Shown here in pieces: positions 18,352 to 41,354 of a DNA stretch of 64,000 nt (position 1 is its first letter; each line of letters starts with the position of its first letter). A model generated the notes under the pieces. The model ran no database searches. It was not told the origin of the DNA and saw only the letters and a list, made by a program, of their open reading frames with translations. The DNA comes from Marsupella aquatica (taxonomy: Eukaryota; Plantae; Marchantiophyta), in assembly GCA_973895155.1 (NCBI GenBank), contig OZ316895.1, positions 23,324,558-23,388,557 on the forward strand, in the 5' to 3' direction. The position numbers and the translations under genes are program-made.

Positions 18352-18765
18352 ATATGATAAAGCAACAAGCACAAAGAAAGACAAGATTTGGCAAGACTTA
18401 CCTGAGTATGTAGAGAGGAGACCTTTCTTTCACCAACCAAAATAGAAACTAACAATGCATTGCAATCAGACAAATGTAGACGTTTATGAGTGCTAGTACT
18501 CCTCTGTTAAGACCTCAGATTGGAGGAATGGGGTAGCACTCTTTCTCTCTTGTGCATTACAGAGATTGAAACTGCAAGAATACACCATCCAACCAACAAA
18601 GGCCTGATTGTTGCATCACCACCCATTACATGTTCATGCAAAGCATAGAGTGCAGAATGTAACGAAATATGTAGCCCAAGGACTTCAAGAGTTTCTTTCT
18701 AACCAGTGGTAATTTCCAAAAACATTGCCAATAAAAAGCAGTTAATGGAAAACACTGATATATAT
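18352..18765. repeat. Dispersed repeat; inverted copy at 22860-23145
   Basis: e.g. tatgagtgctagtactcctctgttaagacctcagatt and ctgcaagaatacaccatccaaccaacaaag are reverse complements of sequence at 22890-23012. The 22.9-kb copy lacks ~130 bp internally. Confidence 0.8.
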
Positions 18766-19574
18766 ATTGGTTGACCCATTTGATGGGGGGGGGGGGGGGT
18801 TGGTCTGGTAATACCCTCGATCCATAATTTCAGTGACTCATAACGGTTTCATTGGAGAGATTAGAACTCAAGAGTTTTTTCCCCTACTGCCAACTTACGT
18901 CATCTGCTTCAATCTCGTTTAACTGTGAATACTGTGGGCACTTCGAAATGGAGAATGGAGCTGAGAGCTGTTCCTGTGGATTAGGTGATATGGTGTAACA
19001 TTTGGAAATCTTTTCGGGAAGAAATAATCTTTATGGCTTAGTGCCCATCGTGCTATTGCTACTAACCATTACATGATTGGAAGAAGATCAGAAAGGGTTG
19101 ATGTCAATGGTAGCATCATTCCTTTTTCCCGGTCAGATGAGATGTGGTGGTGCTAAAGGTGTGACTTGGGTGCCCATGAAGATTTGGTCCACTGTCTTTG
19201 GTTGTGTCCAGAGTCCAGTGAGATCTGGATTTGGCCGGAATAGAAAGCTTATGGAATTGACTGGTTCTGGATCTGGTTCTGGTAACTTTCATTTTGACGC
19301 GGTTCAGGCTCTTCTTGGGGCTCCTTCCTGGTAGACAAAGGGGGACTACCTCTCAAACAATGGCAAATCTTGAGAGGGGTGGCATTCTGGCAGATTTGGA
19401 AACGTACATCGCTGCACTTTGGAGAAGGAGAACGTGCACAATTTCCTGATTAAACAAGATCAAGTTTTGGCTGGAGATCAGATCATTACATATGAAAATT
19501 GCTTGGTTCCAGGATTCTTCTCGTCTGTCACTTTCTGGCCGGGTTCAGCAGGAGCTGATTGTTCGGCTTAGTAG

Positions 19575-21125
19575 AGACTCAACATAGTTATTGCCCTGGG
19601 TACTCTACTGAAGATAGGGGACCAGGTGACCACTTCATAAATATTGGGTACAGATTGATTACTGCAGTGCCTGACGAATCGGTTATTCTTCCCGGAGTTC
19701 AGTTTGCTTCGCAACAACGCGAGAGGATCGTCGCAATTAGTTCATGCCGTTTGTCGACCCTAAGAAGCCATCCTCGTTGCCCCGGCTCTTCTGTCACTAC
19801 GGCCATATTGCAAACACAGTTCGAAGAGACTGAGAAGATGGCACAAGCTCCGCGTTGGGAGGAGAGTTCAAGAACCCAACTCGGGTCTCTTGGCAGTAGT
19901 GCTCGACTTCATGAACGAAGCAGACGTGGGTATCTTCTCGGAACTTATGAGGTACTCTTATGGAGAGGTTCAGCCAAAGCAGTCTTGGCGAAGGGTCTCT
20001 TGTAAATTGATCATGTCCCTTTTACCGAGTGACTGAATAATTCGGGATCGACGACAGTAGAACAGTGGCTCCAACGGCTTCCATCTGAAAATTAAGTTTA
20101 GTATTACCAACTTTCCAGCGATTCCTGTGGGAAAGATAAAAAAAGGGAAATGAAATGATTCAGAAGGAGGTCAAGATCGAAAATCCGCATGGGAACCTAC
20201 AGGTCTAACAACCCACTTCTCTGCATCTGCCTGCAAATGGACTTACACAAGATGGGCAACCTCTTCTGGTACACTTTATATTTTTATTCCTAAAAAATCT
20301 TTTTGACTCCCGGTCAACATGACCCGCATTGTAGTACAGTACTCGTCAAATGTGGGCAGATCGAGGAGCAGTTTGGAGACCGAAAGTGCCTCTCTGTCGA
20401 TCGATATACTGTGTTGAGCTGTACTTTTCATATTGATGAAGCACTTGAATTCAGCCATGTCCACTGTAGCACTGATACGGTGTTGTTCCTCGATCATGTC
20501 AAAGCAACCATGGTGCGAGAGACTGATGCACCTACCTCGGAAAATAGAGTACCGTAGTGCTTGCACTACTCATCCGCGATTCAGTTTTGAGGAGGTTTCC
20601 TAAATCACTCAATTACGCAAAGAAAAATCCAACCAAATGCGCAATTGCATTATGCCCATCATTTCTCCACAGTGAAGGATCGTTTTATATATATGTTTCT
20701 CAACGCGGATCGATTAATAATCAATTTGCTTTTTTACTGCGCAAAAGACGTGCTCTATCTTTGCGTTGTTTTTAGTGTTACCAAGCACTACGGTTTCTAC
20801 ACAATCATCTTCAATCGCTCGCATGCTGAAAACATGTTGAAACCATACCGTTTGATCTTTCTCAGAGAATGAACGCTCTTAGTTTGCTGAAATGTCGGCT
20901 TCTCAGATCCTTCTTGCATGCTTAAACCCATGCGATGCTTTTTCGAAGCAAATGCTTCTCATTTAAGACCTCCAGACGGTGTAGAAGATTATAATGGTAC
21001 CTGGGACTTAATTAAATGCATGACGACATGATCATTCGATTACTTTCTGAAAAGTGAGTTCACTTAATTATCCTTCAGAAAACTGGACCCAACAAGCATT
21101 CGCATTTATTCTCTTTGTGCTGGTG
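19575..21125 (+). pseudogene. Copy 2 of the duplicated BTB/BACK-like segment, with a 676-bp internal deletion
   Basis: Colinear with 10925-13170. One frame reads EAILVAPALLSLRPYCKH...GLLAVVLDFMNEADVGIFSELMRYSYGEV (BTB-like). Lacks the equivalent of 11412-12087. Confidence 0.4.
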
Positions 21126-22361: not shown

Positions 22362-22859
22362 AGTCACCCAAAAATAAGCACTCTTGCTTTAAGGTGGTTC
22401 AGGAAACTTCATCCCAACGCTAAAAGAACGATTAATTAATTATTCTTCTTAACACCAGAATCTTTTTGAGCGGGAACACTACAAGACAAGCTACTTACTT
22501 TTTTTTTGGGGGGGGGGGGGGTGGTGCAGAGAATCCTCACACCTTTACGCATCTTAAGGAAAACTGTTTTGTTGATTTAACTAGATACGATAATCCAAAA
22601 AACTTTTTACTGACCCCCATAGGAAGCTCCTTCCAAACTCCCTGTCTCCTCGTTGTAGCACATCAGCAATGTTGGTCATGAACAAGAAAGTCTAGTTATG
22701 CAAGAAAGACAAATCTAATGATTTGTGCTTGAGGCAAGGCAAAGAAAGACAATTGGACCTTCTAACTGTAAAACCAAATGAATGGGACAGGTAGGAGTGC
22801 AACTTCATATGAACAAAAGAAGACGTAAAAGAAAATGGTTGTTTGGATGTCATGTGATA

Positions 22860-23145
22860 GATATATCAGTGTTTTCCATTAAACTGCGACCAGGTCTTTG
22901 TTGGTTGGATGGTGTATTCTTGCAGTTTCTCTGTAATGCACAAGAGAAAAAGAGTGCTATCCCAAATGTTCCTCTAATCTGAGGTCTTAACAGAGGAGTA
23001 CTAGCACTCATAGAGGCGCACATTTGTTTGACTTCATTGCATTGCTAGTTTCTATTTTGTTGGGTAAAAGGAAGGACTCCTCTCTGTGCACTCAGATAAG
23101 TCTTCACCAATTCTTGTCGTTCTCTGTGCTTTTTGCTTTATCATA
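22860..23145. repeat. Inverted copy of the repeat at 18352-18765
   Basis: Reverse-complement identity, read directly. Confidence 0.8.
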
Positions 23146-24281
23146 TACCCTCCTCTCGCCCCACGCTATTTCCTCCCTCCATCGCAGATTAAAAAAAGAC
23201 AAACGCTGCTTCTTGGCCGTCTCAAATGGACCTCAAATGAATTTTCACGAATTTTTGATCTCATCCTAGAGTCCCTGCTCTAGTCCTTGCAAGTCATGTG
23301 TGTATCAAACTCCTTTGAAACAATTGAATGTCTGCTTGTGGAACTGACTGGACAGCATGAGATGATGAATCATCAATAAAAACTTTAGTCTCTATTCTTC
23401 GTGACAAACGTTGGTTTTGATCTCAAGGTGGGGTTCAGTCCTTGTTTCAATCCCTATCGACTGAAACCCAAAATCTGCTCCCAGTCATGTAATTTTCCTC
23501 CCCTCTAACTGACGTTGAATTTCTGCGGGTTGACGCTCTATTTCTCTTCCTGATCTCGAAGTTTACTATCCAACTGATACAAGGGAAGCGAATCGAGGAC
23601 TGACACCAAAAAGAGAAGGGACAGGATTTCTGTGAGAACTGAGAAGTGAGCTCACGGATACGTCCGGATCGAGCGTGCATGAGTGCAAACTTCAACGAGA
23701 TGACTTCGTAAGTGAGAGTACCCTGAGTACTTTCGGTTATATGAGTACGAAGTCGCTCTCTATTATCATAAGAATAACTTCACTTTCCACTTCTACATTT
23801 CTGATTCTGAGGACAGATTCATCGCATCATGAGCTCAAGGAAATTAATAGCAAGACGAGCGCTGTCCTCGACATCATTCTGCCAAACTTGTCGTACCCAG
23901 GGGGTGTCTTTAACGATGAGGGTTCTGTTTTCGTAAAAAGTGCCGCACACAAACGAATTCATTTGTCTATCTCACAGCCAGTTATGTGCCTGGGCTTGAT
24001 CCATTTGCAGAGTTGCAGACTCGATCGAATGTTTGAATATTGGGCTCCTTGACATGTTCAATCGAGTACCATTCTGTACCATGGTCTGCGACTGACAAGG
24101 TCGATCGAATCTGCAAATGGAACGTTGACTTTCGTCTTGGACATACATTGCTCAAATGAGGTTCTAGAATCGGAGCTACCGACCAGATTTGCACGTGATT
24201 TATGTGCATGTGGTAGTTTTGGACTTTTACTCGACCCTGCTGTTCGTTACTAATATCTAATTTAGTCCTAATATAGATGGA

Positions 24282-25998
24282 CTAGCTCAATACTAATACT
24301 TGTGCGTTGTACAAAAGTAGTCGTGTGGGTCAAGATGTCATTGAGAAAAATGATGTAGTGTCAGCCAAGAGATCGTGGAGAAAAAAGATGTAGTGTTGCC
24401 TAGGAGGTCGTGGAGAGAAAATATGTCGTGTTGCCCAAGAGGTTGTGGAGAGAAAAAATGTCATGTTGCCCAAGAGGTCGTTGAGAGAAACGATGTCATG
24501 TCGCCCAAGAGGTCGTTGAGAGTAAAGATGTCGTGTCGCCCAAGAGGTCATTGAGAGAAAAGAAGTTGTGTTGGTCAAGATGTCATTGAGAAAAAAAGAT
24601 GTTGTATTGGCCAAGAGGTCGTTGAAAGAAAATATGTAGTGTCAACCAAGAGGTCGTGGAGAAAAAAGATGTCTTGTCACCCAAGAGGTCATTGAGAAAA
24701 AAAGATGTCGTGTCGGCCAAGAAGACTTTGAGAAAAAAAGATGTCGTGTTGGCCAAGAGATCATTGAACAAAAAAATATCATGTCGGCCAAGAAGTCGTT
24801 GAGAAAAAAGACGTTGTGTCGGCCAAGATGTTGTTGAGAAAAATTGTCATGTTGGCGAAGATGTTGAGAAAAAAACGTCATGTCGGCCAAGACATCGTTC
24901 ACGGAAAATACCCGTGCGTTGCACAAAAGATATTGTTAAGAAATAAGATATTGTGTTGCCCAAGATGTTGTTAAGTGAAAGATGTCACAAAGTAAAAAGA
25001 TGTCTTCAGAAAAAGTAGTTTTGCCAAACATGCCATTGTGTGAAAGATGTTATTAAGAAAAATGTGTCATTTTGCCAAAGATATTGTGAAGTAAATGACG
25101 TTAAAAGAAAAATGGTGTTATTTCACCCAAGCTATGTTCTGTGAAAGATGTTATGAAATAAAAAATCAAGGAAACTAAGAAGGAGTGAGTCTTTTTCTCT
25201 GTTTTGTTTTTTTTACCCAAAATGCCCATGCATTTGAATGGCGACCACTATAAATTGGAGCAACGTTATATTATTGGTTTCAGAGTTAGTGTTTTAGGGT
25301 TTAGCAAAGATGACTATTCTCTCAATATCCTTTCAATCCCAATGCGTTGCATAATAGATGTTATCTGGTTAAAGATGTTGTTGAGAAATAGATCATACGT
25401 GGTGCAACAGATAATCGTTGAATAAAAATGATAATTGTTAAAATACATTATTACACAAAAACTTTTGTTGAGTGAAAGATATCATTGTGAAAAATAGAAA
25501 TTGGGGTTCATGCAAGATAACTAAAAATTAACTAATTTCCAAAGAGTTAAATCTCCTTTTTAAGAGCAAAAGCCAAAATAATATAATGTCAACTTACTCT
25601 CTTCCCCTTAGTGCTAGCTCCCTACCAAAACCATTATCTCAAGTAAATCTTTTCACTTTCATGCCCCATGCCAAATGTACTCTAAATTAATAGACCATAA
25701 AATAATATACTTACACTTTAATGCTCCATGTCAAAAAGTATTATAAGCAAGCTACAAAATAACTACAGTAGCACATGCAAGTACTCTATGATATATTATA
25801 TCTACCTTGTATTATAACTTACATACCTACCTTGTACTATAACTTACAGCCAATTTTAGGTTCCCATCTCACTCAATCCAAGAACCATAAATAATTCAAG
25901 CAAATCTCTGATGGCTTAGTTTTGTTCCCTCCTTTTCATTTTTGTAAGGGGACGAAGGACTAAAACTGGCGAGATTGGTTATTATAATAGATAGAAGA
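24282..25998 (-). mobile_element. Non-autonomous Helitron-like element with an internal minisatellite
   Basis: The minus strand begins A|TCttctatctattataat (25998) and ends ...ttgtacaacgcacaa(hairpin)gtattagtattgagCTAG|T (24282), i.e. TC...CTAG inserted in an AT site with no TSD. A second hairpin motif, cccgtgcgttgcac, is at 24911-24924. Confidence 0.65.
24320..25160. repeat. Minisatellite, ~37-40-bp units, about 20 copies that degrade towards the right
   Basis: Consensus ccaagaggtcgttgagaaaaaaagatgtcgtgtcgg. Confidence 0.85.
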
Positions 25999-26001
25999 TA
26001 C

Positions 26002-26111
26002 TGTTAGACTCTACCTTTGACCGGACGACCGGACCAGCCGGTCACCCTGGTCCCACTATATGTACTCCTATTCCCGACTATACACATGTTCATTCCATTC
26101 ATATTCTCACA
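26002..26111 (+). repeat. 5' LTR (110 bp)
   Basis: TG...CA; matches the 3' LTR apart from 6 substitutions and a 4-bp indel. Confidence 0.92.
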
Positions 26112-27809
26112 CGTTATCAGCACGAGGTCTCAGCCAGCGGAACCGAAAAGAAGAAAGAGAAGACCATGGAGAATTGAATTTTTTTTAAAAATGCCGAATG
26201 GAAGATAAAGCGTGATAAGAGATGGAGCACACGGGTCTCGTTTTTCCTTAGGAAAGCGAACCAAAGGAAGAGCGAATAAGAACTTTTCGAAAACAGAAAG
26301 GAACCTGGAAAACTTCAATCTGGCCTCAGACGATCAAGAGAAGAAGGTCGAAAGCAGCAAATGTGATATAGAAACGAGAGATTGAGGCGCAATCTGAAAT
26401 TACCATGATTTGAAGGCCGAGCCATGACGGAACGATCTCATAAGGACATCGAAGATCACTTAAGGAGGCAGAAGAGCAGAGCCTAGACATACACGGCAGC
26501 CCACCACGAAATCTAAATAGAGACGAAAAGCAGACCCGGGGAGATTCCCATAAGAAACGACAAAGGGCAATCGGGAAGAACCCTCAAACAGTATAATGAT
26601 ATGAAGAAGGCCACAATCTGAGACGAAATTGATCAAGACAAGTTCAAAAGAAGGCGAACGTGGAGACAGCATTATCATAGAGTGGCTACAAAGATCACCG
26701 AAAGGAATCGAGAGACGAAAACAATAAGGACACTGAGAGCACACAGCAGAAGGAAAGAAAGGCAGCAAAGGCCGCCTCATATTTTCTTGGAGAATTCGTC
26801 ATTTTTTTTGGTCGAAGGTGGAATGGTGATTTTTGAAGTGCAGCGGAGTGCAAGATCAGAGGATCGTGAAGCGAAGAGTGCGCATTGACTCAAAAGCACG
26901 AAACAAAAAGGAGGAAAGCAAGGCAGAAAAGGTGTGAAAAACGAAACGATCGAAGCAGGAAGAGAAGGACATCGCAGGATCCATAGGGACGAAACCGAAA
27001 ACAAATTGAACTCGTTGAAGGGCAGAAAAATCGAGAGGAAGAGAACTCGAAGTTGAAGCGGAGGCAATGAGATACGAAAAGGTGAGAGAGAGGTAGCCAC
27101 CGCCTCAATCCCCATAAGGACACCACGGATAAGAAAGCCAGGTAAAGCCGAGGCAAAAGAAAACAGCAAAACTCACTGAAAGGAATCGAAGAACAGAGCC
27201 CTGGATCGAGTGATCGGTGAAAGAAGGCCACAAGTAAAAAGGAGATTTGAAGGTCACACGAAGAGGCGTGAAGGGGGCCACCAAGAGGTGTCAAATTGAG
27301 CAACATTGCAAGGAAGGATGACAAGGGAAAACCGATAAGCAAACCTCCCTCCTTGACTACACAGTTTTTACAAAGTCATTTCCTGCACACCAAGCAATCC
27401 ATGCACTTAACCAAAATAAGAGCACATAACCGAAAAACCTCCAGAACTGCACACCGTAACAAAGAAAATTAACCTTACAAAGACACATGTGCACTTAACC
27501 AGGGCACGACTAAAAAATCACCCATAAATGCAACCCTAAGTGCACAACCGGATAACTGCACAATTTCACAAAGGAAATAGCGATTACAAAGGAAACCTTG
27601 CAGTTATACATTTACAAAGAAACCCAACTTAATAAGTGTAAACCCTAAATTCTGCAAAAACCCAAACATTCTCGCTTTACTCGCCCACGAATTAGATAGC
27701 CCTCCTCAACCCTTTCTCCACCATTGCATGCGGCAAATGTGCATTGTCTTTTGACTATATATATTATATATAAACACGCACACCACCGTTGCACGCCAGG
27801 ACCTTAGAG

Positions 27810-30800
27810 ATGACCAACCTTGAGAAACTCACCTTCCCCGCCCTAGAAATAGATGGCGGCAACTACCTAGAATGGTCCATGAACCTAAAAGAAAACCTAA
27901 CCTCGCTAACCCTACTCCCTGCGATAGGGCTCGCTCAACCCATCCTTGCTAGCGAACCACAACCAGACCCATTAACTAAAGCCAACGAATCTAAGGCTCT
28001 AGTATTCCTGAGACGCCATATCCATAGATTCCTACAAAGACAATACATGCACCTCTCAACCCCCCGTGAACTTTGGACAGCGCTCCAAACCTGATTCGAC
28101 CACCAAAAACTGGTCGAACTGCCTAAAGCCAGGCAAGACTGGCTAAACCTACGAGTCTAGGACTTTACCTCTATTTCAGCCTACAATAGCGAACTCTTTA
28201 GAATAACCTCAACTCTCGCACTATGTGGCGAGCCGGTCACAGACACGGATCTGCTAGAGAAGACCTTGTCGACATTTCATTCATCGAATGTGTGGCTATC
28301 AACACAGTATCGAAACATGAAGTTCGGGCAATACTCCGAGCTCATAGCCCACCTCCTAGTCACTGAAAGAAACCAAGAACTTCTTTTCGTAAACTCTAGA
28401 AAACGACCTGCGGGCACAATGCCCTCAGGACAACAGAATGAAACCCATAACATAGAAAATGATGAACCCTCCACATCGAGGCAAGGCATTAAACGCACTA
28501 AGAATAGCAACCGGAGAAACACCCACAACAGGGGGAGTTTCTATAACCAACGTCCACAATATAACTCCCAATGAACTTTTCGAGGACGTGGAGGACGAGG
28601 CGGACGTAGCGGACGCGGAGGACGCGGCGGTGGAAGAACATATAACAACAACCGCCGAAATGATTGGTCACAATCCCGACCACAACGGGAACGCCCAAAA
28701 TGCCATGCATGTGGCATGACCAACCACCTAGCCAGAAACTGTAGAATCCCACAACACCTTAAAGAGCTATATCAACGATCCCTCAGGGACGGACAAATCT
28801 CTAGGGCACCACCCCATGAAACCCACGGGGCGTTTATGGAGTCTAGCGACCCATTCCAAGACTTTACAGATCTGCCTGCCCAACCAGAGGCACACTTAGT
28901 GGCAAGTAGCCCCACTACACCAGATTTAAATAGTCCAAGCACATGTATTATTGATAGTGCGACCACGCATACTATCCTCCGGGATAGGCACCTTAGAATC
29001 TGCCATTTTTGCCCATAGAATCTGCCATTTTCGCCCCGAACGCAACTCGTAATCTCCTCAGTTTCAGAGATATACGAGCAAATGGACTACACGTCCAAAC
29101 AGGCGATACAAGAGACCAAGAGGTCATCCACTTGGTTGAAAATACCCCTACGGGGAAAATCATTAAAGAAACCCTTTTCTCGTATCCTTGCGGGTTTTAT
29201 GTAACTCATATAGAATGTCTGCATAACAATGTCAACACAAGTGAATTGCATGCGCTCTGGCATGCACGCCTCGGCCACCCCGGCCAATCAATGCTAACCA
29301 AAATAACTAAGAATTCAAGTGGCATTCCAATCAATACACGCCACATTCAAGCTAGCACCCCATGCACTGCATGCTCACGCGGCAAACTAATAACAAGGCC
29401 CACGACATCAAAATTGCCAACCAACATACCCAAATTCTTGGAAATAATCCATGCCGATGTTTGCGGGCCAATTAACCCACCGAGCGGACCATTCCGCTAC
29501 TTTATGGTATTAATCGACGCATCAACTAAATGGTCAAATGTGACACTGCTTTCAACGAGGAACATGGTTATGCCTCGCATTTTGGCGCAAATCTTGCACG
29601 TGAAAGCACAATTCCCAGATCACCCCATTAAGACACTAAGGGTGGACAATGCAGGGGAATTCACATCCGAAACATTTGATGACTTTTGTACATCACTTGG
29701 CATCGACATACAATATCCTATACCTCACGTGCATTTTCAGAACGGATTAGCCGAAGCGGTCATTAAACGCCTTCAGTTAATCGCACGCCCATTACTAATG
29801 CAGTCAAAACTCCCCGTCTCAGCATGGGGACATGCCATATTACAGGCTAATGCATTAATCCAATACCGCCCATCGGCTTTTAACACCTATAGCCCATACC
29901 AAATTGCTAATGGTATAAAACCTGACTTATCCCACCTTCGTTCATTTGGATGTCAAGTAATGGTCCCCATTACTCCACCCAAACAAACCAAGATGGGACC
30001 CCAACGACAGTTGGGGATATACATCGGATTCGACTCACCGTCCATAATCCGATATATGGAGCCTACAACTGACAACATTTTTAAAGCCAAATTTCTAGAT
30101 TGCCATTTTGACGAACACATTTACCCACCATTAATAACCCCTGAACACCCACAACCACCTTTGGAGTGGGAAAGACATTCGCCATTTTGGCAAGACCTTA
30201 GAACGAATCAAGGTGAGAAAGAAGTTCAACGAATTTTGCAACTCCACAAGATTGTGGAAGAACTTCCTGACGCTTTCGTTGACACATCACAATTTACCCG
30301 CTCACATATTCTAGCTGCGAGAGCATCTGCTCGCATCGAATTATCAAGTGAGCCAGCAAGTACATCCCAACCTCGTGCAAAACGAGGTAGACCCTTGGGA
30401 TCAAAAGATAAACAACCACGAAGGCGTGGTTCATCTATACCATCTTCACCTGATGTCGATCATACCGAATCTACATCCCATGAAGAGATCTCTATCCACT
30501 ACGCACACACAGGTGCGATGTGGGATAGAAATACTACTTCAATAGATGATGCTTTTGCATTAATGGTGGCAACACATATCACTGACGATACACCCGAACC
30601 AATATCTATCTTAGAATGCCAAAACAGACCAGATTGGCCTGAATGGCAAAAAGCTATAAATGGAGAATTAGATTCCCTACTCAGCAGACACACTTTTGGC
30701 CCAGTCGAGCCAACACCGCAAGACGTACACCTAATGGCTACAAGTGGACATTTATCCGCAAAAGAAATAATAAAGGCCAAGTTGTACGCTATAAAGCACG

Positions 30801-32355
30801 TCTGGTAGGGAAAGGATTTACACAACAACCGGGAATTCATTACGATGAAACTTACTCACCGGTTATGGATAGCACAACATTTCGATATCTTATCGGATTT
30901 GCCATTTTCCATCAACTACAGATGCGACAACTGGATGTTGCAACTGCATATTTATATGGCACTTTAGACACTTGTCTATACATGCGATCACTTCCTGAGT
31001 TGGAGCAACGACACCGAGCTTTAGCTCAAGGCGCTAAATCGCATATCCCATATTTACATAAGATTATAACACAATTATCTCAAGTTACACCTCATGTGTC
31101 ATCTACACATGTAACTCATAATAACGACACCGCTGTGTCAACCGTACGGAATACTCGCCGCGGACTAGCTATCCGCGTGTTGAAGGCATTATATGGCCTG
31201 AAACAAAGTGGCAGAGTATGGTATCAAAGATTTACTGATGAAATGATTGCCATGGGTTTTTCCCATCATGCCATTACACCATGTTTATTTATTAAACATG
31301 TGGATGATGAATATGTCATCGTTTCTATTTATGTTGATGACTTAAATATATTTGGGACACCCCAACTTACAGAAAATATTATTACCAGTCTTAAATCAAC
31401 ATTTGAGATGAAAGACCTTGGACATACAAACTTTTGCTTAGGCTTACAATTGGAGATCTTACCTACTGGCATGATACTCCACCAAACCACACAAACCGAA
31501 AAGATCCTAAAATAGTTCAATATGAACCTAGCACACCCATTGACGTCACCAATGGTAGTACGTTCATTAGAAAACAATACTGACATTTTTCGCAAGCGCG
31601 AGGAACATGAACCAATATTAGGACCAGAAACTCCTTATCTTTCTGCAATAGGAGCATTAATGTACCTAGCAAATCAGACTAGACCAGACATTGCATTTGC
31701 AGTTAACTTACTAGCCAGACATAGTGCAACTCCCACAGCCAGACACTGGAATGGAGTTAAGCACGTATTTAGATATCTACGTGAAACCACCGATACCGGG
31801 TTATTTTACCCATTCGGTGCAAACCACGAGCTCATAGGATACGCGGATGTCGGATATCTCTCCGACACTGACACTGCAAAATCCCAAACTGGATATGTTT
31901 TTACCATAGGGGGTACCGCTTTTTCTTGGAAAAGCGTGAAACAGACCCTAACAGCAACCTCATCGAATCACTCATAAATCTTAGCTCTACATGAGACTAG
32001 TCGTGAAGCCGTTTGGTTACGATCCTTTATAAATCACATCAACACCAAATGCGGCCTACCACCACTAACGAAGCCTACTAACATTTTTGAGGATAACGTA
32101 ACATGTATACAGCAGATCACAAAAGGATTCATCAAAGGCGATCGCATGAAGCATATAGCTCCGAAGTTTTTCTACACCCACGAATTACATGAAAAAGAGA
32201 TCAACATTTTGCAGATTTCAAGTGCAGACAACTATGCGGATCTCTTCACCAAATCACTATCGCCATCAGTTCATCACCGACACTGCCAGGCGATTGGACT
32301 GCGGAGTGTGCGACGCATGATGACCGCGGAGACTACTGCTCCACATGATACCTGA
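27810..32355 (+). pseudogene. Disrupted gag-pol polyprotein of the copia element
   Basis: Gag start MTNLEKLTFPALEIDGGNYLEW (Bianca-like); zinc knuckle CHACGMTNHLARNC; protease IIDSATTH; integrase LWHARLGH...CTAC, HADVCGP, LRVDNAGEF, QNGLAE; RT YKARLVGKGF, LYGLKQSGR, IYVDDL; RNaseH GYAD...KHI...ADLFTK. In-frame stops at ~28092, ~28157, ~28572, ~31513, ~31975; frameshifts near 29010 and ~30730. Confidence 0.92.
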
Positions 32356-32683
32356 TGATGCTGACGACATGATGCTTATGATATGCTGCTGACGACCAAC
32401 TGATGAAACAGATGTTAAAGCTAGATTTACTATAGCATCTAACTTTATACACTATTGACATTTATTACGACGAGGACTGTTAGGCTGCACTCTTTTTCCT
32501 TTAACACTCATATTTTCTCTGCTACATTGGTAGAGTTTTTTCTAAGCTAGAGTTGATAAAGGTTTTTTAACAAGACAGTCTACCTTGATTGTACTTATAT
32601 CATGTATTTCCTATGAACATGATATAATAGGTATAGTCTATGTTATCTATATAATTGTCACGTACTATATATCCAAAGGGGAG

Positions 32684-32789
32684 TGTTAGACTCTACCTTT
32701 GACCGCACTCCGGGACCAGCCGGTCACCCTGGTCCCACTATATGTACTCCTATTCAAGACTATACACATGTTCCATTCATATTCTCACA
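32684..32789 (+). repeat. 3' LTR (106 bp)
   Basis: Preceded by a polypurine tract; TG...CA; matches the 5' LTR. Confidence 0.92.
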
Positions 32790-33297
32790 AATACACTTTT
32801 GCATTAGTTCGAAAAGTTCATTATGATGTACAGCCCAATGCTGACGATTGTTGATCCATCGTACATCCCAATGTAAGTGGCATCTGGGGTGTCGGCTGGT
32901 ATCGTCCCATTTGGCCTAACCTTGCACTGTCTCGAGGGTTTCTGAGTTTTCTCTTTGTTTATAATAAATCATTTAGATTAAGATCTTTCCAAAGAAAAAG
33001 AAAAAGAGAAACAAAAAACAAGCACGATCTCGCCCTTCCGCTAAAACGAGCCAAGCTTTTCCTCTTGTCTCGATCCGTGTCTCGATTGACACGATGAAAG
33101 AACTCGCTGCACTTCCAAAGTGTTAGATCGATCGCAACTCTGGAACTAATACTGTAGTTTCGAGTGCATTCCATGCAGAATTGGTTCTTACTGAAAGACA
33201 CGTACATTAGAAAATCCGTGATTGTCATATATACTTCCCTTTGCACTGTCTTCTGAACGTTGCAGTTGCTTGAAATTAATGCTGCCAATAGTCTCGA

Positions 33298-33417
33298 ATA
33301 CGGCAATTGCATCGAGAGTAGCATATGGGACTCTGACCTGAAACGTCGGAGTTGGGCATACGGGAATTGCATCAAGAGTAGCATATGGGACTCGGACTTG
33401 AAACGTCGGAGTTGGGC
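33298..33417 (+). repeat. 60-bp tandem duplication spanning the MFS start codon; creates a uORF (33325-33336, MGL*)
   Basis: atacgg(c/g)aattgcatc(g/a)agagtagcatATGggactc(t/g)gac(c/t)tgaaacgtcggagttgggc occurs twice. The first copy has TGA where the second has GGA. Confidence 0.85.
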
Positions 33418-34794
33418 GCTCAGACTACGGTCCAGCAAAGCACATCAGAAGGCGAATCCCAGCTGCCTCAATCCTCACCGGAGAAATGGAACCTCGGAGC
33501 TCTCGAGTCTGGCCCAGATGGCGACGGAGAAAAGGAGAATAATTGGGCTGCTGGAACTCCACCTTCGCCCGAGAAAGATGAGACGACCACGTACCCGGAA
33601 GGGGGCGTGCGCGCATGGGTCGTCGTCCTCGGTTCATGGTGTGGAATTTTCGCTTCTCTGGGTACGGCGAGCACCTTCGGGTCCTTCCAGTCGTATTTCA
33701 TCACGCACCAGCTCTCCTCGTACAACCCCGGGGCGGTAGGCTGGATTTTCAGCCTGTATGCGTTCCTAGCTTTCGCAGGCGGCATTTTTGTTGGGCCAAT
33801 TTTCGATTCGTATGGACCAACGTGGCTCATCCTGGCGGGGAGCGTTGGAGTGTGCTCGTGCATGTTCCTCATAGGGCTTTGCAGACAGTACTGGCAATTT
33901 CTGGTTGTGTTCGGATTCTTGGGAGGCGGGGGTTCGTGTCTCATCTACACCCCCTCGGTTGCAGCTATTGGTCATTACTTCAGGAGAACTCGTGGAAATG
34001 CAATTGGCATTGCATTATCGAGCAGTGCGATTGGAGGCGTGCTCCTTCCTATACTGCTTGAGAAATTAATTCCCAGAGTGGGCTTTGCGTGGAGCACCCG
34101 GATAATCGGCTGCATCTACGTCTGCGTCTGCGTGATTGCCTGCATTCTCGTGCGCTCGCGTCTTCCACGGGCGAAGGACGCGAATGCCTGGCCCGATTAT
34201 AGAATTTTCATGGAGCCGGCTTTTGCCATTACTGTGCTCGCTGTTTATCTGCTTCAGTGGGCGTACTACATTCCTCTTGCCTACATCAGCTCCTACGCGC
34301 TTCACCAGGGCTTCTCCTCCGCCTTCGCTTCTCAGGTCCTCGTGTTGCTGAACTTGGGCTCCATCTTCGGGCGCTGGCTTCCGGGCTTAACTGGTGATAT
34401 AATTGGGCATTACAATAGCGTCATCATCATGACGTTACTCATCATCGCCTCTGTCTTTGGGATCTGGCTACCTTTGGGACAAACGAAAGCAGGACTTGTA
34501 GGCTTTACTGTCACTTTTGGGTTTTCTTCCGGGAGCATCCTTACTCTGACTGCGGCTTGCATTGGGCAGCTGTGCCAGACGAAGAACTATGGACGCTATT
34601 ATGCTACTGCATATACAGTTGCCTCTGTAGGATATTTGACTGGAATTCCGATAGGTGGGGAGCTCGTGGGCATGAGTCACGGAGATTACATGAGCTTGAT
34701 CTACTTCGTTGGAGTTTGCTATGTGGGCGCAGTGCTAGCGCTTGTCGTCGTGAGGATTTTGCAGACGGGGTGGACGATATTGGTGGCTTATTGA
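33385..34794 (+). CDS. Intronless MFS transporter, monocarboxylate-porter/fungal Mch-like family, 469 aa
   Basis: Uninterrupted ORF with ~12 hydrophobic segments. Signature YPEGGVRAWVVVLGSW, FGSFQSYF...QLSSY, IFDSYGP, IGHYFRRTRGNAIGIA, GFAWSTRIIG, GRWLPGLTGDIIG, YGRYYATAY, typical of fungal MCT-like (Mch) permeases. Confidence 0.88.
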   Translation: MGLGLETSELGAQTTVQQSTSEGESQLPQSSPEKWNLGALESGPDGDGEKENNWAAGTPPSPEKDETTTYPEGGVRAWVVVLGSWCGIFASLGTASTFGSFQSYFITHQLSSYNPGAVGWIFSLYAFLAFAGGIFVGPIFDSYGPTWLILAGSVGVCSCMFLIGLCRQYWQFLVVFGFLGGGGSCLIYTPSVAAIGHYFRRTRGNAIGIALSSSAIGGVLLPILLEKLIPRVGFAWSTRIIGCIYVCVCVIACILVRSRLPRAKDANAWPDYRIFMEPAFAITVLAVYLLQWAYYIPLAYISSYALHQGFSSAFASQVLVLLNLGSIFGRWLPGLTGDIIGHYNSVIIMTLLIIASVFGIWLPLGQTKAGLVGFTVTFGFSSGSILTLTAACIGQLCQTKNYGRYYATAYTVASVGYLTGIPIGGELVGMSHGDYMSLIYFVGVCYVGAVLALVVVRILQTGWTILVAY

Positions 34795-36015
34795 TCGAGG
34801 GAAGAGAAGTGTCACTTGAGATCTTTGCCTTCTCAGGCGCCACGTTGTTTATCATTCCGGGTAAGTCTGATCAATACATACGATCTGATTGTTTTCATGT
34901 ATCGGATTTTGTTACAGATAACTAAGCATTCCTAACGCCCTTGTCAATCGCTGGAAACATGGTACAAGGTGCGGTCAGTTATCTGAGTGTCGTACTTGAA
35001 AGATTGCAATTCCTAGTCAGGTTATGAATTTCATTTCAGGTACTGGTTGAGGCTCATATGTAAATGTTCGGTGCAGAAGCTGTCTGCAGAATTATTATGG
35101 GTCTCATTAAACAAGTGCCAAGCTAGAGCCTCGGCTAGGCTAGAGCTTGGTGAATTGACTGCATCCACAAATTGTGAGCGGGCACCGGAACGATGAGGGA
35201 GCTACTGTAGGACAGCCACGGATTCTGTGGCAATTTCTAAATTAGGCCGGCGATCTCAAACAGTGATCTCAAGTGAAAAGAATGAGCTTAAAACGACACA
35301 ATCACGATTGCGATCTGTGTCGGTACGTCATCTTTTGTTTTCCTAGATATTCGAATTGAATTTTACTCTGGCTTCTCATTGGCGCTGTACTGTTCCTGGA
35401 TTCATTGTCTCAACTCATCATATAACACGCACCTGGAGATATTGACTCCATGAACAACTCCCGGATTTGATGGCCATCCGGGGACGAAGTTTGAAAGATA
35501 CCCCTCGACTCCTTACATCCTTTCTACAGGGGCGTCTGCCTTAGTTTGGTGGAAAAACTATGATTGGCCGTTCTCGAGAGATGTCTGACAATACGACAAC
35601 AGGCTGAATTACCTAGTGCTGGACTGGGTTGGAGCATTCTCTGCCTAGCTTGCCAAGTTGTAGGGCGAAGTAGGCATCCATCTCCTGAGTGAGCCTTTGA
35701 CATCGAGCGCCTGCTACACATTGCGAGCAGCGATTCTCCTCGTTAATGTACCCAGTCTAAACCAGGTTCTCAGTAATTACCTAAATCAAGGTCAAAAGAC
35801 TAAACTCGCTTAGTGCCCTCAAAGACCCACAATCGTTGGTTAGTACTGTTTATATCCTCTGGAAGCCAGAGACAGAGATTGCCACTTGCTGAGGACATAA
35901 AGACTTAAGCCCTGGGATCAACGAAACCAGAAATTTCCCGTTCCTGGGGAGATCAAAACTATGTGTCGGTAACCAACTGGGATGAGCCTAGCACCGAGAG
36001 AGGTCCCAGAATCAA

Positions 36016-36550
36016 TCCCCTCTTCACATGCAATGGTTGTGGAGGGTGAGTATGTGTGTGTGGGTGTAGTGATGGGAGTACTGGTTGTAATCCCCTCTCC
36101 ACATGGTCAAGGGTTGTGGATGTGGAGGGTGTGAGTGTGTGTGTGGGTGTAGTGATGGGAGTACTAGGCCCTGGCTAGTCCACAAATGTCTCTCTCCCTC
36201 CTGGTCCTGGGTATGACCCCCTTACAGAGGTGCATGCTCCAGAGTTGGTTTCTTCTCAGCCCTAGCTGGTCTGCTGTGAGCTCTGATCCAACCCTCTCTC
36301 TCAGTCCTGGTCCCTGTATGACCCCCCTTGTGGGATTCCCTCCTGGTCCTGGGTATGACCCCCCCTTGTGGGATACCCTAGAGAGGTCCCCTTGTGGGAT
36401 ACCCTAGAGAGGTGCATGCTCCAGAGTTGGTTTCTTCTCAGCCCTAGCTGGTCTGCTGTGAGCTCTGATCCAAACCTCTCTCTCCGCCCTGGTCCTGGTA
36501 TGACCCCCCTTGTGGGATACTTTACAAAGGTGCACATGCTCCAGAGTTGA
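36016..36550. repeat. Composite local repeats (two ~70-bp GT-rich units, then 2-3 nested units)
   Basis: gtggagggtg...gtgtgtgtgggtgtagtgatgggagtact x2; agaggtgcatgctccagagttggtttcttctcagccctagctggtctgctgtgagctctgatcca x2; cctggtcctgg(g)tatgaccccc x4; ccccttgtgggataccctagagaggt x2. Confidence 0.75.
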
Positions 36551-37066: not shown

Positions 37067-39499
37067 TGTGATGCCTGCCACAAATAGGTCTAGGTTTGTA
37101 TGTCGTAGCACACAAAAGAATCCGCCTCAACGACATCATTGAACATTGTATTTGTCCGGTTAACTCTACTCACGCATTAGTGAGAAATAATTTTGCTATG
37201 TGACAGCCAATGATTTCCCTTCAGGCTTGTTCAGCAATCAGGTCCTGTGACGTGGTGCTTTCCATGCTTCGTTCACTCCGGTTGCTTTCTAAGAAGCGGA
37301 TTTCTTAATGTTTAAAAACACCGGCCACTGAAATTCTTGGCATAAGCAACCTTCAGTTGTTTTCAACAGGGAACGTGAGCACTATGACCGTCAACGCTCA
37401 CAAGAAGTCTTCCATTTTAGAGTAAAAACTGAACCAGGAGGAGCTTTAGCAAACAGAAGATATTTTCATTGTGTAAAGCCATATAGCAAGTTGGGCAGAG
37501 AAGATCCACTTTTTGGCACTGAGCACCGGCCATGCTGTCCGCAGAAGGTACTACTGAAGATGCATGCAGCCCAAGAGGGCTGATGTCCGAACTCTTGCTA
37601 CTAAGAAGCTGCCAGAGCCTGATGGGTTCTTTTCGGATTTCCCACACGTCAAGGCAGCACGATCCAAAACCTTCTTCCACGCAACGAGCCAACCTTGTCA
37701 AACCTATGCTCTCGCTCCTAAGCCCCGTGGATGACATCACACTACCACAGAGGTTGCCAAGTGACGACAGCCTAGCCAGATCTTGTACTTGGCCTGATGT
37801 CTATAGTAGTTACGTAACCACTTTAAGCTAGGATGTTCGAGATGGATGAAGGAAGGGCCGACCTCAGCATGCAGAAGACACATCAGTTGATATGGGTGGA
37901 ATGCGCCAACATACCAAGTTAGGATTAAAAACAGCGGTCCATCAGGGAAAATACAAGACTGCCGGCTTCTTGTTAATGATCTAAGATCAAAGTTGCATTG
38001 GCAGTCTGTCTGGGAAGAGTGGTCGATGATGGTTTGTTCTTCGAAGAGTAAATACCACTCTTAACTGTTAGTGATTTCTCGAGTTACTCTTTTTGCTCAA
38101 CATCTTTGATCAGAACATTGTTACCCTGGAAAATGATAGGAGAAGTCGCTTCATTCAAGTCATGTTTAGAATGTCCATAATAAATGTACTGTTTTTAATG
38201 TCGGTGGTGACAAAGGAAGCTACTAAACCTGCACTAGAAATGTAAACAACAGATTAGACAACAGATTAGAGGCTTCCCAATCCAGATGCTGAACCAACCA
38301 TCTCCTTCTAGTTTAACGCGGAACGTGCAACCCTACCACAGTAATTGCAATGGAGAGCATCACGACGATTGCACTCATCTCGAGTGGCAATGTCAGACCC
38401 CTGACTACGCTTCCGAGCAAATGACTTGGGGCTGATGTAAGGAACGTAAATCACACTACAACTCAACAAGAAAGCCGCTAAAATATATGGAGATCCTTTG
38501 TGAGCATTTCAGTACTTCAGAATGCCCACCTAAAGTCACCACGGGATCCTAAATCCCTTACTGTTTGTCCATATTTACGATGAGCGCGCGCCCCCAATGC
38601 GCCCCACCAAGAATTAGGACAGATAAACTTAGAACTGGTTGGACAAACAAAACACCGTTTACTTCAAACAGATCCACTCACGATAAGGTAGTCTTATTGT
38701 CACTCACAGCACCGCCAACTCCGTCTGCACCTCTTCGGCCCACTAAACCTTGGAAGAACGTCTACACTTATACCCAATGCCCGCTACCTACAATCCAAAC
38801 TTATCAAATGAACTTCTTCGAACAGCACCGGAACCGAATGGCTCAACCCAACTCATCTCACGGACTGCAAGAAACGAGTTATCCTTCGTTGATATCCAAA
38901 TCTTCAACATTCGTACCAGCGAGCTCCGAAACGAAAGGACTCGACCCAACTAATCTGCGAAACAGCAATGAAAGATTTCTCCTCGGTCAAGACCCTAATC
39001 GTGAAGCTCATTAGGATCAGTCAGCTCCAGAGCTGAATGGCTCGATCCCACCAAACTGACGGGCTCCAAAACAAGAGCTTACCCTTGGTTAAATCCCTAA
39101 TCTTCGAAGTTCATTAGAAACCTTCGTCCAATCCCTAATCTTGAAGCTCGTCAAGATCAGTCAGCTCCAGAACTAAATGGCTCGATCGCACTAAACTGAC
39201 GAGAAAAACAAGACATTAACATTGATCAAATCCCTAATCTTCGCAACTGGGATCGGTTAATCAGCTCAAATCCGGAGCTGAATGACTCGTCAAACAAAAC
39301 CATGAGGAGTACAATCATTGACTCGGTAAACAGCATCCTGATTGACATTGGGTGAGAGTGGCTCGATCTCACTAAAACTATCAACCCCAAAAAGGACAGG
39401 AAGACAAGATTTTACCCATTCTGAAACCCCTAGTCTTCGCAATCCGGTAGCGATCAGCTCACATATGGCTCGTCCAGCAGTCTACGGGGAGCATTCAAG

Positions 39500-39945
39500 C
39501 TCGATGGGTTGCTCGTTGTTGCATCCTGACTGAAAAACAGTACACGGGGAGTACAATAGCAGAGCTCAATCTCCATGGATTGCTCGATGTTGCATCCTGA
39601 TTGAAAACAGTACACGGGGAGTACAATATCAGAACTCAATCTCGATGGATTTGCTCCATGTTGCATCCTGATTGAAATTGGGTGAACTCAATCTCGATGC
39701 ATTGCTCGATGTTGCATCATGGTTGAAATTGGGTGAACTCAATCTCGATGCATTGCTCGATGTTGCATCATGGTTGAATTTGGGTGAACTCAATCTCGAT
39801 GCATTGCTCGATGTTGCATCATGGTTGAAATTGGGTGAACTCAATCTCGATGCATTGCTCGATGTTGCATCCTGATTGAAATTGGGTGAACTCAGTCTCG
39901 ATGCATTGCTCGATGTTGCATCCTGATTGAAATTGGGTGAGTACC
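39500..39945. repeat. Minisatellite: two ~68-bp units followed by ~5.5 copies of a 51-bp unit
   Basis: ttgaaattgggtgaactcaatctcgatgcattgctcgatgttgcatc(a/c)tg(g/a) at 39672, 39723, 39774, 39825, 39876 and partially 39927. Related degenerate units extend back to ~38800. Confidence 0.9.
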
Positions 39946-41354
39946 TCGAAAGGCTCCAAAGATTCACCGGCGGACGACCGAAGTAGGGCCGCCCGGACTC
40001 CGGCGGAAAGGTGTGTTCATAGGCATGGGGTGTCAGCACGATGGGCCGGTCTCTTTAAGATCATAGGCTCATCGCCTCTACCCTCGTAAGCCCAGGCAAA
40101 CAGAGCATTTAGCCAAGCTCCTTTTTATACCCTGGCCTCGGGGAGTGGCTGGCCGCCTGTTCTGTGCTTATGGTTTTATCTAGAGAGAGAGCGATCTGAG
40201 GTTCAGCCCAAGGCTAGAGTCCATCGAGGTCAGCGAGACCAGTCATTCTAGCTTTTGGGTACTGTATTTGGGAGGGTTTAGGGCTTGGCCGAGGGACAGA
40301 GACGAGACCAAGAGAGGCACTGCAGAATCAATAGGGCATGTCAAAAGAGGGCCGTTAGTGAGATATAGCCAAAGACAATAAAGTGTTTTTATGACTGGGG
40401 ACAAAACTTTATGGGCTATCTATATACAAGGCCTGTAAACCCTAAACCCTAAACTTTATGGCCATGCTCTACTAGGGGGTCTCAAAGCTTCATCGTTACT
40501 GATTACTTCTGGCCATAAACATTGACTTATGGTCATGGCATATGAATGATAAAAGTCCTGCAAATGTTATGGATCATGAATTTGGTACTAAAACTTAAGG
40601 AGAATCAAATTTTGAGGTTTGAGACCCCCCAGTGTATATATCACACTCATTAGAATAAATGTTCCAAACCCCAAACACCATTCCAAAGGCCAAAGACCCA
40701 TTAAAAGGGAGAAAACAAGGGGGAAACCTAGGAAGACCAAAGAGCTGAAAAGACCCAGACAACTAATCTTGCCAAACTAGAGACACAATCACAAAGGTAA
40801 GACCCAATGGGGTGTCTCAAACCTGCTTTTCCCCCATTTTTTCTGGTCAGCCTCTGTGGGACATTTCCATTTGTGTTCCTGACCAAAACCCAACCTTCCT
40901 CAGACCCAGGGGGTTCTGAGTATGAGATGAATCATAACTCAACATCATTAAATTTTCCGATTGTTCATTTTTTTGAAGGGCACCACTGTGTTTTGCGTGG
41001 ACTGGTGCAGACGCCAGTGCATTGACCACCCAAGTTTTTTTACCCGGCCTATGGTATTGCAGTCACATAAAACCTCTGCAAAACAGAACATTTGAGACCC
41101 CTAATGAAGAAAACAGACTAAAAACCCCCAAAAAGCTAAGAGCGCCTGCATACCAGTCTCATAGAACCTCCCACAACAGAACACTTGAGACCCCTAATAA
41201 ACAAAACAAACCAAAGAACCCAAAAAAGCCAGAGTCCCCTACAGAGGCACAGTTTCAAGACCCTACTCCAGGGATCCCCAACGAGATTACGTTGGCCCAT
41301 GTAACTACAAAATTAAACTGGTGAGACATTCTCTTACCAGCAGGTGGAAGTCGC

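What the first reader, a model, noticed from the sequence alone, without database searches (positions are those of the whole stretch)
33385..34794. Intact intronless fungal-type Mch/monocarboxylate MFS transporter in a plant locus: candidate horizontal gene transfer
Seen: a 469-aa uninterrupted ORF with no introns, whereas every other gene in the window has 5-17 exons. It sits ~600 bp from the 3' LTR of a plant Bianca-type copia element, in a TE-rich accessory block. Known: YPEGG.RAW.VVLGSW, FG.FQSY...QLS.Y and GR.LPG...D..G are hallmarks of fungal MCT-like (Mch) permeases, a group that includes yeast Mch5 and many secondary-metabolite-cluster transporters; this family is not a typical land-plant MFS group. 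Inferred: the gene came from a fungus, possibly as processed mRNA, and is kept under selection, since the ORF is intact while neighbouring TEs and pseudogenes are full of stops. Substrate unknown; organic acids, riboflavin or a toxin are guesses.
Basis: partly seen in the sequence, partly recalled or inferred. Interest (0 to 1): 0.85.

Follow-up and report, generated by a model that had tools for sequence, protein, structure and literature searches.

The report
Fungal transporter gene in leafy liverworts
This plant genome carries an intact membrane-transporter gene that groups with eight copies from the leafy liverwort Calypogeia deep inside a family tree of cup fungi, so leafy liverworts likely took it from a fungus, multiplied it and altered its predicted binding pocket, probably to move a small organic acid across the cell membrane.

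Summary
Observation confirmed; horizontal transfer well supported; details corrected. The 469-aa ORF is intact and folds as a 12-helix MCT/SLC16-like transporter. Its nearest named relatives are eight Calypogeia fissa (leafy liverwort) proteins on 7-16 Mb contigs. In trees, window plus Calypogeia form one clade (100/100) nested in Leotiomycetes, sister to unnamed environmental fungi and near Claussenomyces (Leotiales) and Pseudogymnoascus; AU tests reject a position outside Leotiomycetes (p 3e-4, 2e-6) or with four Helotiales rows (p 0.005). Read depth equals that of the neighbouring TAF1B gene (24.9 vs 24.8). The nearest fungal gene is itself intronless, so no processed mRNA is needed, and the copia element is younger and missing upstream in two other runs. 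All six aligned liverwort copies lose a TM7 glutamate found in 227 of 227 fungal relatives, but keep the carboxylate-binding arginine and lack MCT1's proton pair: likely a facilitative organic-acid carrier with a changed pocket. Relatives of the donor gene are co-sequenced with the host. Fungus-to-liverwort transfer is a known class; this family was not found in 10 literature searches, but one key supplement was unreadable. Substrate and expression untested.

The parts
33385..34794 (+). Intronless ORF, 469 aa, MCT/SLC16-like (fungal Mch) MFS transporter of Leotiomycete origin; 12 predicted membrane helices, disordered first ~57 residues
   Evidence: trees
34372..34374 (+). R330 in TM8, aligned to MCT8 R371 (binds the substrate carboxylate); invariant in liverwort and fungal rows
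34255..34257 (+). Q291 in TM7; Glu in 227 of 227 fungal rows, Gln or Arg in all six liverwort rows aligned
33670..33672 (+). S96 in TM1, aligned to MCT8 N119 / MCT1 K38; Asn in 99% of fungal rows
33379..33387 (+). Six bases before the ATG plus the ATG are identical to the start context of the nearest fungal gene (L001)
33298..33417 (+). 60-bp tandem duplication that includes the start codon; the upstream copy gives a 3-codon upstream ORF (33325-33336) in frame with the gene
32684..32789 (+). 3' LTR of the copia element (element 26002-32789); neighbour only, not part of the transferred DNA

Best explanation
This is an intact MCT/SLC16-fold transporter gene whose tree places it inside Leotiomycete fungi, so it was likely transferred from such a fungus into an ancestor of leafy liverworts, where it duplicated, is kept under purifying selection, and is predicted to work as a facilitative carrier of an organic monocarboxylate with an altered pocket. 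Shown: intact ORF, MCT fold, nesting in Leotiomycetes, single-copy host read depth, paralogues in Calypogeia, pocket-position substitutions. Inferred: (a) one DNA-level transfer of an already intronless gene from a lineage near Leotiales/Thelebolales, taken with at most a few bases of 5' flank (about 90% for transfer, 60% for a Leotiales-like donor); (b) at least two duplications before the window's host split from C. fissa; (c) alternating-access transport in which R330 binds a carboxylate and no MCT1-type K38/D309 proton switch exists, i.e. downhill uniport like MCT8/MCT10 (about 55%); (d) loss of the TM7 glutamate and changes at 96, 214, 294-295, 385-391 shifted specificity away from the fungal substrate, most likely to a bulkier, perhaps aromatic, plant acid (about 35% for this substrate class).
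For: Nearest named homologues: 8 C. fissa proteins (P0002, P0122, P0003, P0015, P0005, P0245, P0006, P0246) on contigs of 7.2-16.4 Mb; P0002 69% identical over 99% of the query, best named fungus 55%. Liverwort clade 100/100; with near environmental rows 99/98; with Claussenomyces and Pseudogymnoascus 95/98; Leotiomycetes 94/95 (similar). AU rejects Leotiomycetes without the liverwort rows: p 2.8e-4 and 1.8e-6 when only named fungi and the contig-verified P0007 are used. P0007's contigs are fungal in content and share the MCT-SCP2 order of Claussenomyces. Run X1: one contig 32726-36219 with 0 differences bridges 64 bases of the host LTR and the whole gene at depth 24.9; TAF1B contig 24.8. Three further runs from two other studies cover the ORF with near-identical pieces without gaps. 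11 of the 15 ORF differences shown are synonymous against 25% expected, p 1e-4; dN/dS about 0.1 against L001 with synonymous sites near saturation. Model pLDDT 87.5, best Foldseek matches MCT1, SfMCT, MCT2, MCT8. Pocket mapping with residue roles from PMC12078798 (passages).
Against: No single contig joins the gene to a plant protein-coding gene, and X1 may be the source of the assembly. The donor lineage has no named genome; P0004, P0008, P0009, P0010 have no context and could be plant or fungal; the sister position of P0004 is weak (85/60, 88/67) and the near rows as a clade without liverworts are not rejected (p 0.31). AU groups were chosen after seeing the tree; trees with bootstrap used LG+G4 on 19-26 rows, the mixture-model tree on 56 rows did not finish its careful search. 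The SNP count uses only the 40 rows displayed (243 hidden) and may mix paralogues. The TM7 glutamate is present in only 59 of 120 distant family members, so its loss need not change the mechanism. Pocket assignments rest on alignments at about 20% identity to human MCTs, not on distances in the model. No substrate or expression data.
Confidence: 0.75

Rival explanations
1. Same transfer, but the protein still does the fungal job (for example riboflavin uptake like yeast Mch5, or pyruvate uptake like Botrytis MctA); the substitutions are drift.
For: Many fungal relatives are automatically named riboflavin transporter MCH5 or monocarboxylate transporter. Mch5p transports riboflavin (PMC5404878 passages); BcMctA imports pyruvate (PMC7695001 passages). 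R330, S326, S382 are unchanged. The TM7 Glu varies in the wider family.
Against: Neither Mch5p nor MctA was placed in my trees, so orthology is untested. Liverwort rows change 12-17 of 125 positions conserved in at least 85% of fungal rows, near fungal rows only 1-5, and the changes cluster at positions that align to the MCT8 pocket.
Confidence: 0.25
2. The gene is fungal contaminant DNA joined into the plant assembly (or the Calypogeia models are contaminants).
For: Fungal-type homologues are present in the same sequencing runs; no one contig links the gene to a plant coding gene.
Against: Depth 24.9 vs 24.8 for TAF1B while the fungal-type contig is at 3.8; contig bridges a high-copy host LTR; no fungal neighbour genes in the window; eight Calypogeia copies on multi-Mb contigs form one clade with it and share derived residues absent from fungi.
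Confidence: 0.03
3. The direction was plant to fungus, or the family is ancestral in plants and lost almost everywhere.
For: The unnamed near rows lack named genomes; the homologue searches scored only 7997 candidates each, so rare plant copies may be missed.
Against: The fungal part of the tree follows fungal classes and the liverwort clade is a tip within it; the fungal gene lies in a gene order shared with Claussenomyces; no other named bryophyte or alga is in the top 120 of three searches.
Confidence: 0.02
4. Transferred gene that is now silent or decaying in this host, e.g. throttled by the neighbouring LTR and the upstream 3-codon ORF.
For: Copia LTR 595 bp upstream; duplicated start region creates an upstream ORF; the window copy has lost N96, kept in 4 of 6 liverwort rows.
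Against: Intact frame and mostly synonymous differences in other runs, while flanks carry many indels (10 of 12 indel rows shown are outside the ORF).
Confidence: 0.1

Closest known systems
Fungal Mch / MCT-like MFS permeases (yeast Mch5p; Botrytis MctA; the Pezizomycotina orthogroup beside SCP2)
   Same: Sequence family, 40-67% identity to fungal rows, PEGG motif before TM1, TM8 arginine, no MCT1-type proton pair.
   Different: Encoded in a liverwort genome, amplified there, and lacking the TM7 glutamate invariant in its fungal orthogroup; orthology to Mch5p or MctA not tested.
Human SLC16: MCT8/MCT10 (facilitative) and MCT1/MCT2 (proton-coupled); bacterial SfMCT
   Same: Best sequence and fold matches in the PDB; R330 = MCT8 R371, S326 = MCT8 S367, position 96 = N119.
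   Different: About 20% identity; no MCT8 D424/Y339 pair (S382, L298) and no MCT1 K38/D309 pair (S96, S326).
Fungus-derived genes of liverworts (YANB, EUPF, RDS1, FB lectin; Dong et al. 2025, PMC12513842)
   Same: Fungal donor, few introns, LTR-rich surroundings, lineage-restricted, as that paper describes for bryophyte HGT genes (section 8).
   Different: A membrane transporter rather than an enzyme or lectin; donor narrowed to one fungal lineage; not named in that paper's main text, its supplementary HGT tables could not be read.

Membership tests
Major facilitator superfamily | MFS_1 profile above cut-off; 12 helices in two six-helix halves | tested here: met
   119.7 bits vs cut-off 33.4; 12 helical segments in the model
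MCT/SLC16-like (fungal Mch) family | Closest solved relatives are MCTs by sequence and by fold | tested here: met
   All 12 PDB sequence hits are MCT1/2/8/10; Foldseek ranks 1-10 are MCT1, SfMCT-type, MCT2, MCT8, TM(q) up to 0.74
MCT/SLC16-like (fungal Mch) family | TM8 arginine that binds the carboxylate | tested here: met
   R330 aligns to MCT8 R371
Proton-coupled MCT1-4 type | K38 (TM1) and D309 (TM8) proton switch | tested here: not met
   S96 and S326 at the aligned positions
MCT8/MCT10 type | D424 (TM10) and Y339 (TM7) pair | tested here: not met
   S382 and L298
Mch5-type riboflavin transporter | Orthology to yeast Mch5p and riboflavin uptake | not tested
   Mch5p was not among the fetched proteins; uptake cannot be assayed here
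Fungus-to-plant horizontally transferred gene | Plant clade nested in fungi with statistical support | tested here: met
Fungus-to-plant horizontally transferred gene | Residence in host chromosomal DNA | tested here: met
   Host-level depth and LTR-bridging contig; Calypogeia copies on 7-16 Mb contigs; no single read or contig to TAF1B was available
Fungus-to-plant horizontally transferred gene | Absence from the wider green lineage | tested here: inconclusive
   Only C. fissa (and one 43% Persea-labelled row on a 23-kb contig, not placed in a tree) among named plants in the top 120 of three capped searches
Retrogene / processed mRNA | Intron loss relative to an intron-bearing parent | tested here: not met
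   Nearest fungal gene is one ORF; the intron near residue 165 seen in 16 of the 30 loci printed was lost on the fungal side
Secondary-metabolite cluster transporter | Biosynthetic genes next to the donor gene | tested here: not met
   L001/L002 neighbours are a histidine kinase, an unnamed 627-aa ORF, SCP2 and an FG-nucleoporin

The most novel reading that the evidence does not exclude
Leafy liverworts took this transporter from their own Leotiales parasites or endophytes (the order that holds Mniaecia, a parasite of liverworts), whose descendants still live on them and show up as low-depth contigs in the host's sequencing runs; the plant then rebuilt the pocket and multiplied the gene into a small family that moves liverwort-specific organic acids or defence compounds, possibly at the interface with the same fungi. 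Donor and recipient alleles would then both be alive, culturable and directly comparable.
Probability: 0.2. Interest if true: 0.82.

Novelty: new member of a known kind. Interest (0 to 1): 0.58.

Why it matters
Transfers from fungi into bryophytes are known in bulk, but the donor is rarely narrowed to a lineage that plausibly lives on the recipient, and most worked examples are enzymes, lectins or toxins. Here a transporter family not otherwise found among named plants in these searches entered leafy liverworts, expanded to at least four paralogue lineages and changed at pocket positions that are fixed in its fungal orthogroup. The fungal and plant versions are 67% identical in the core and both intronless, so swapping a few residues in yeast can test directly how a transferred transporter acquires a new substrate. 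It also points to an unnamed Leotiomycete lineage that co-occurs with these plants.

Tried and rejected
No whole genome is held for the window, so paralogues and flanks beyond 64 kb could only be glimpsed through laid contigs. No RNA holder listed; this says nothing on expression. Fungal flank remnants: tblastx of the whole window against L001/L002 gave 0 of 20 hits outside the gene; against all 80 loci 8 of 695 hits lay outside, all under 41 bits. No Pfam match in ORFs between the gene and TAF1B. Processed-mRNA origin, copia-mediated capture and cluster origin were considered and rejected (see interpretation). Helotiales (order of the known liverwort symbiont Hyaloscypha, PMC7062687 passages) as donor: rejected on four Helotiales-side rows (p 0.005 and 1e-4), but no Hyaloscypha sequence was in the set. 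Naming the donor: two cluster look-ups gave no named member for the near rows; the protein atlas did not answer. The careful mixture-model tree on 56 rows did not finish. Earlier scan findings: none returned. X2 lacks contigs over most of the ORF but only about 57% of that run was read; not interpreted. No complex prediction was run, as no binding partner is claimed.

Full report
1. Observation. The ORF 33385-34794 (+) is one open frame of 469 codons and matches Pfam MFS_1 at 119.7 bits. An in-frame stop lies six bases before the ATG. The copia element runs 26002-32789; its LTRs are identical at 100 of 106 paired columns with one 4-nt gap, and its target-site copies differ at one of five bases. 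The gene starts 595 bp after the 3' LTR. Neighbouring genes are plant-type and split into several ORFs: O-methyltransferase, TAF1B, a P-type ATPase and a DOMON/At5g54830-like gene. I did not count exons or test the 'Bianca' label.

2. Relatives. The best named hits are proteins of Calypogeia fissa, a leafy liverwort of Jungermanniales: P0002 is 69% identical over 99% of the query. Cluster look-ups show eight C. fissa proteins in four pairs on contigs of 7.2 to 16.4 Mb, two of them with adjacent accession numbers; the pairs may be homoeologues or haplotype copies. Next come unnamed environmental proteins at 55-62% (P0004, P0007-P0010), then named ascomycetes (Claussenomyces 55%). In the top 120 of three searches (245, 1840 and 222 hits, each from 7997 scored candidates) no other bryophyte or alga is named; one row labelled Persea americana (43%, 23-kb contig) is probably fungal contamination (inference; not placed in a tree, left out of the conservation count). 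That the window's host is a leafy liverwort is inferred from this kinship.

3. The nearest fungal gene. A metagenome scan returned 80 loci. L001 and L002 encode P0007 exactly, as a single ORF, between a histidine kinase, an unnamed 627-aa ORF, an SCP2 gene and an FG-repeat nucleoporin. The SCP2 gene is 73% identical to the SCP2 part fused onto the Claussenomyces model P0016, so the order transporter-SCP2 is shared; SCP2, the 627-aa ORF and the kinase occur near the transporter in 7, 5 and 9 of the 80 loci. This is a housekeeping neighbourhood, not a biosynthetic cluster. Sixteen of the 30 loci printed show a frame break near residue 165, as from an intron, whereas L001/L002 do not: the intron was lost on the fungal side, so a processed mRNA is not needed. 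The six bases before the ATG are identical in the window and L001, and even the variable N-terminus aligns. None of the fungal neighbours is in the window.

4. Phylogeny. FastTree on 228 of 234 proteins (six under 330 aa dropped), a quick mixture-model tree on 56 rows (careful search unfinished) and bootstrapped LG+G4 trees on 24, 19 and 26 chosen rows agree: window plus Calypogeia are one clade (100/100); the window copy is sister to P0002 inside the Calypogeia paralogues, which implies two earlier duplications; the clade joins the unnamed fungal rows (99/98; 86/92), then Claussenomyces and Pseudogymnoascus (95/98; 92/96), inside Leotiomycetes (94/95; 89/84). AU tests reject Leotiomycetes without the liverwort rows (p 2.8e-4; 1.8e-6 with only named fungi and P0007), and reject grouping them with four Helotiales-side rows (p 0.005 and 1e-4). 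They do not reject the near rows as a clade of their own (p 0.31). Groups were named after seeing the tree. Claussenomyces and Mniaecia are both Leotiales in NCBI taxonomy; Mniaeciaceae are described as parasites of liverworts, and Thelebolales as a neighbouring clade (PMC7325659 passages; PMC12799595 passages). No Mniaecia or Hyaloscypha sequence was available, so the donor is narrowed, not named.

5. Contamination. In run X1, which may be the source of the assembly, one contig covers 32726-36219 without differences at depth 24.9, including 64 bases of the LTR of a family at depth in the thousands; the TAF1B contig is at 24.8 and the single-copy pieces between at 26-30. No one contig spans gene and TAF1B. 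Runs X3, X4, X5 from two other studies cover the ORF with close, gap-free pieces. In X3 and X5 the DNA before 32793 is neither the LTR nor, by a motif search, elsewhere in the window, so the copia element is a later, variable neighbour. X1 also holds an 8972-base contig at depth 18.8 with a liverwort-type paralogue and an 11859-base contig at depth 3.8 whose loose ends read, by eye, VYLLEWALF and IGCLTGIPIV, the fungal type; loose ends in X5 read VVFPLMLDAL and SDFAYQALVI, as in P0007. In X1 the depth marks this as another organism; in X5 depth cannot separate it from the host. Relatives of the donor therefore likely live with the plant.

6. Selection. Of the 40 difference rows shown (243 hidden), 15 lie in the ORF; 11 are synonymous against 25% expected (p 1e-4; may mix paralogues). 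Ten of 12 indel rows shown lie outside the ORF, the other two are a compensating pair in paralogue contigs. Against L001, dN 0.22 and dS about 2.2 over 402 codons, fourfold sites 33% identical: purifying selection and an old transfer, far older than the LTR pair.

7. Mechanism. The model (97-row alignment, pLDDT 87.5, pTM 0.84) has 12 helices and matches MCT1, SfMCT-type, MCT2 and MCT8 best; all 12 PDB sequence hits are MCTs. Counting along the profile alignment to MCT8: R330 = R371, S326 = S367, 96 = N119, 294/295 = Y335/F336, S382 = D424. PMC12078798 (passages) states that R371 binds the carboxylate, that N119 corresponds to MCT1 K38 and S367 to MCT1 D309, which drives proton coupling. The protein thus keeps the carboxylate site and lacks the MCT1 proton pair, which fits downhill uniport (inferred). 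In an alignment of 234 proteins (under 380 aa, P0015 and P0243 left out), 125 columns are at least 85% conserved in 227 fungal rows; the window changes 15, Calypogeia rows 12-17, the near fungal rows 1-5. E291 in TM7 is Glu in 227 of 227 fungal rows and Gln or Arg in all six liverwort rows; V391, N385 and S387 also change in all six. E291 is the only mid-helix acid of TM7-TM10 in P0007, a candidate partner of R330 or proton site; losing it would leave R330 free for an anion (inferred; no distances measured). Against this, only 59 of 120 distant family members have the Glu. I commit to a facilitative carrier of an organic, perhaps aromatic, monocarboxylate with a changed pocket; riboflavin (Mch5p, PMC5404878 passages) or pyruvate (BcMctA, PMC7695001 passages) are rivals.

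8. Novelty. Fungus-to-bryophyte transfer is a known class: PMC12513842 (passages and section 8) reports 1,809 transferred families, short, intron-poor and near LTRs, and names fungal-derived liverwort genes YANB, EUPF, RDS1 and FBT; it names no transporter in its main text. Its supplementary spreadsheet and main supplement were too large to read and may list this family. Ten literature searches (listings and abstracts only unless cited above) gave no report of an MCT-like transporter transferred into liverworts; the library lacks most subscription papers. Ascomycete symbiosis in liverworts is reported only for Jungermanniales among Jungermanniidae (PMC7062687 passages), which fits the distribution seen.

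9. Verdict. Real, intact, very likely transferred from a Leotiomycete into leafy liverworts, amplified and altered there. New member of a known kind; interest 0.58, up to about 0.8 if the donor proves to be the plant's own parasite and the pocket change gives a new substrate.

Noticed in passing
window 33298-33417: A 60-bp tandem duplication includes the start codon and creates a 3-codon upstream ORF in frame with the gene; contigs of X3 and X5 span it without a 60-base gap, so it is shared. It could lower translation.
   Followed up: partly
run X1 laid on window 34271-34625: An 11859-base contig at depth 3.8 carries a fungal-type homologue about 81-84% identical in two patches: an unnamed Leotiomycete co-sequenced with the host.
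   Followed up: partly
run X1 laid on window 33481-34688; runs X3, X4: At least one further liverwort-type paralogue (8972-base contig, depth 18.8) exists in the host's data, so the family is multi-copy here too.
   Followed up: partly
P0004 (unnamed, 2670-base contig): Keeps the fungal pocket residues but shares an N-terminal motif with the liverwort copies and is their weakly supported sister; either the closest donor relative or an ancestral-type liverwort copy.
   Followed up: partly
P0003 / P0015 (Calypogeia fissa): One paralogue lineage has Arg at 291 and His at 386 in P0003, i.e. a charge reversal in the predicted pocket, suggesting divergence of substrate among paralogues.
   Followed up: no
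L001 7582-9465: A 627-aa fungal ORF without Pfam match lies next to the transporter in 5 of 80 loci.
   Followed up: partly
window 10928-13144 and 19577-21093: A several-kb direct duplication (90-96% identical pieces, spacing about 8 kb) just after the O-methyltransferase gene.
   Followed up: no
window 18352-18767 and 22857-23146: Long inverted repeats about 4.3 kb apart, like the ends of a DNA transposon.
   Followed up: no
window 24277-25500 and 39491-39991: Tandem arrays with 35-bp and 51-bp periods; the first is high-copy in the laid runs.
   Followed up: no
P0016 (Claussenomyces): The public model fuses the transporter to the downstream SCP2 gene, probably an annotation error that happens to record the gene order.
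   Followed up: yes
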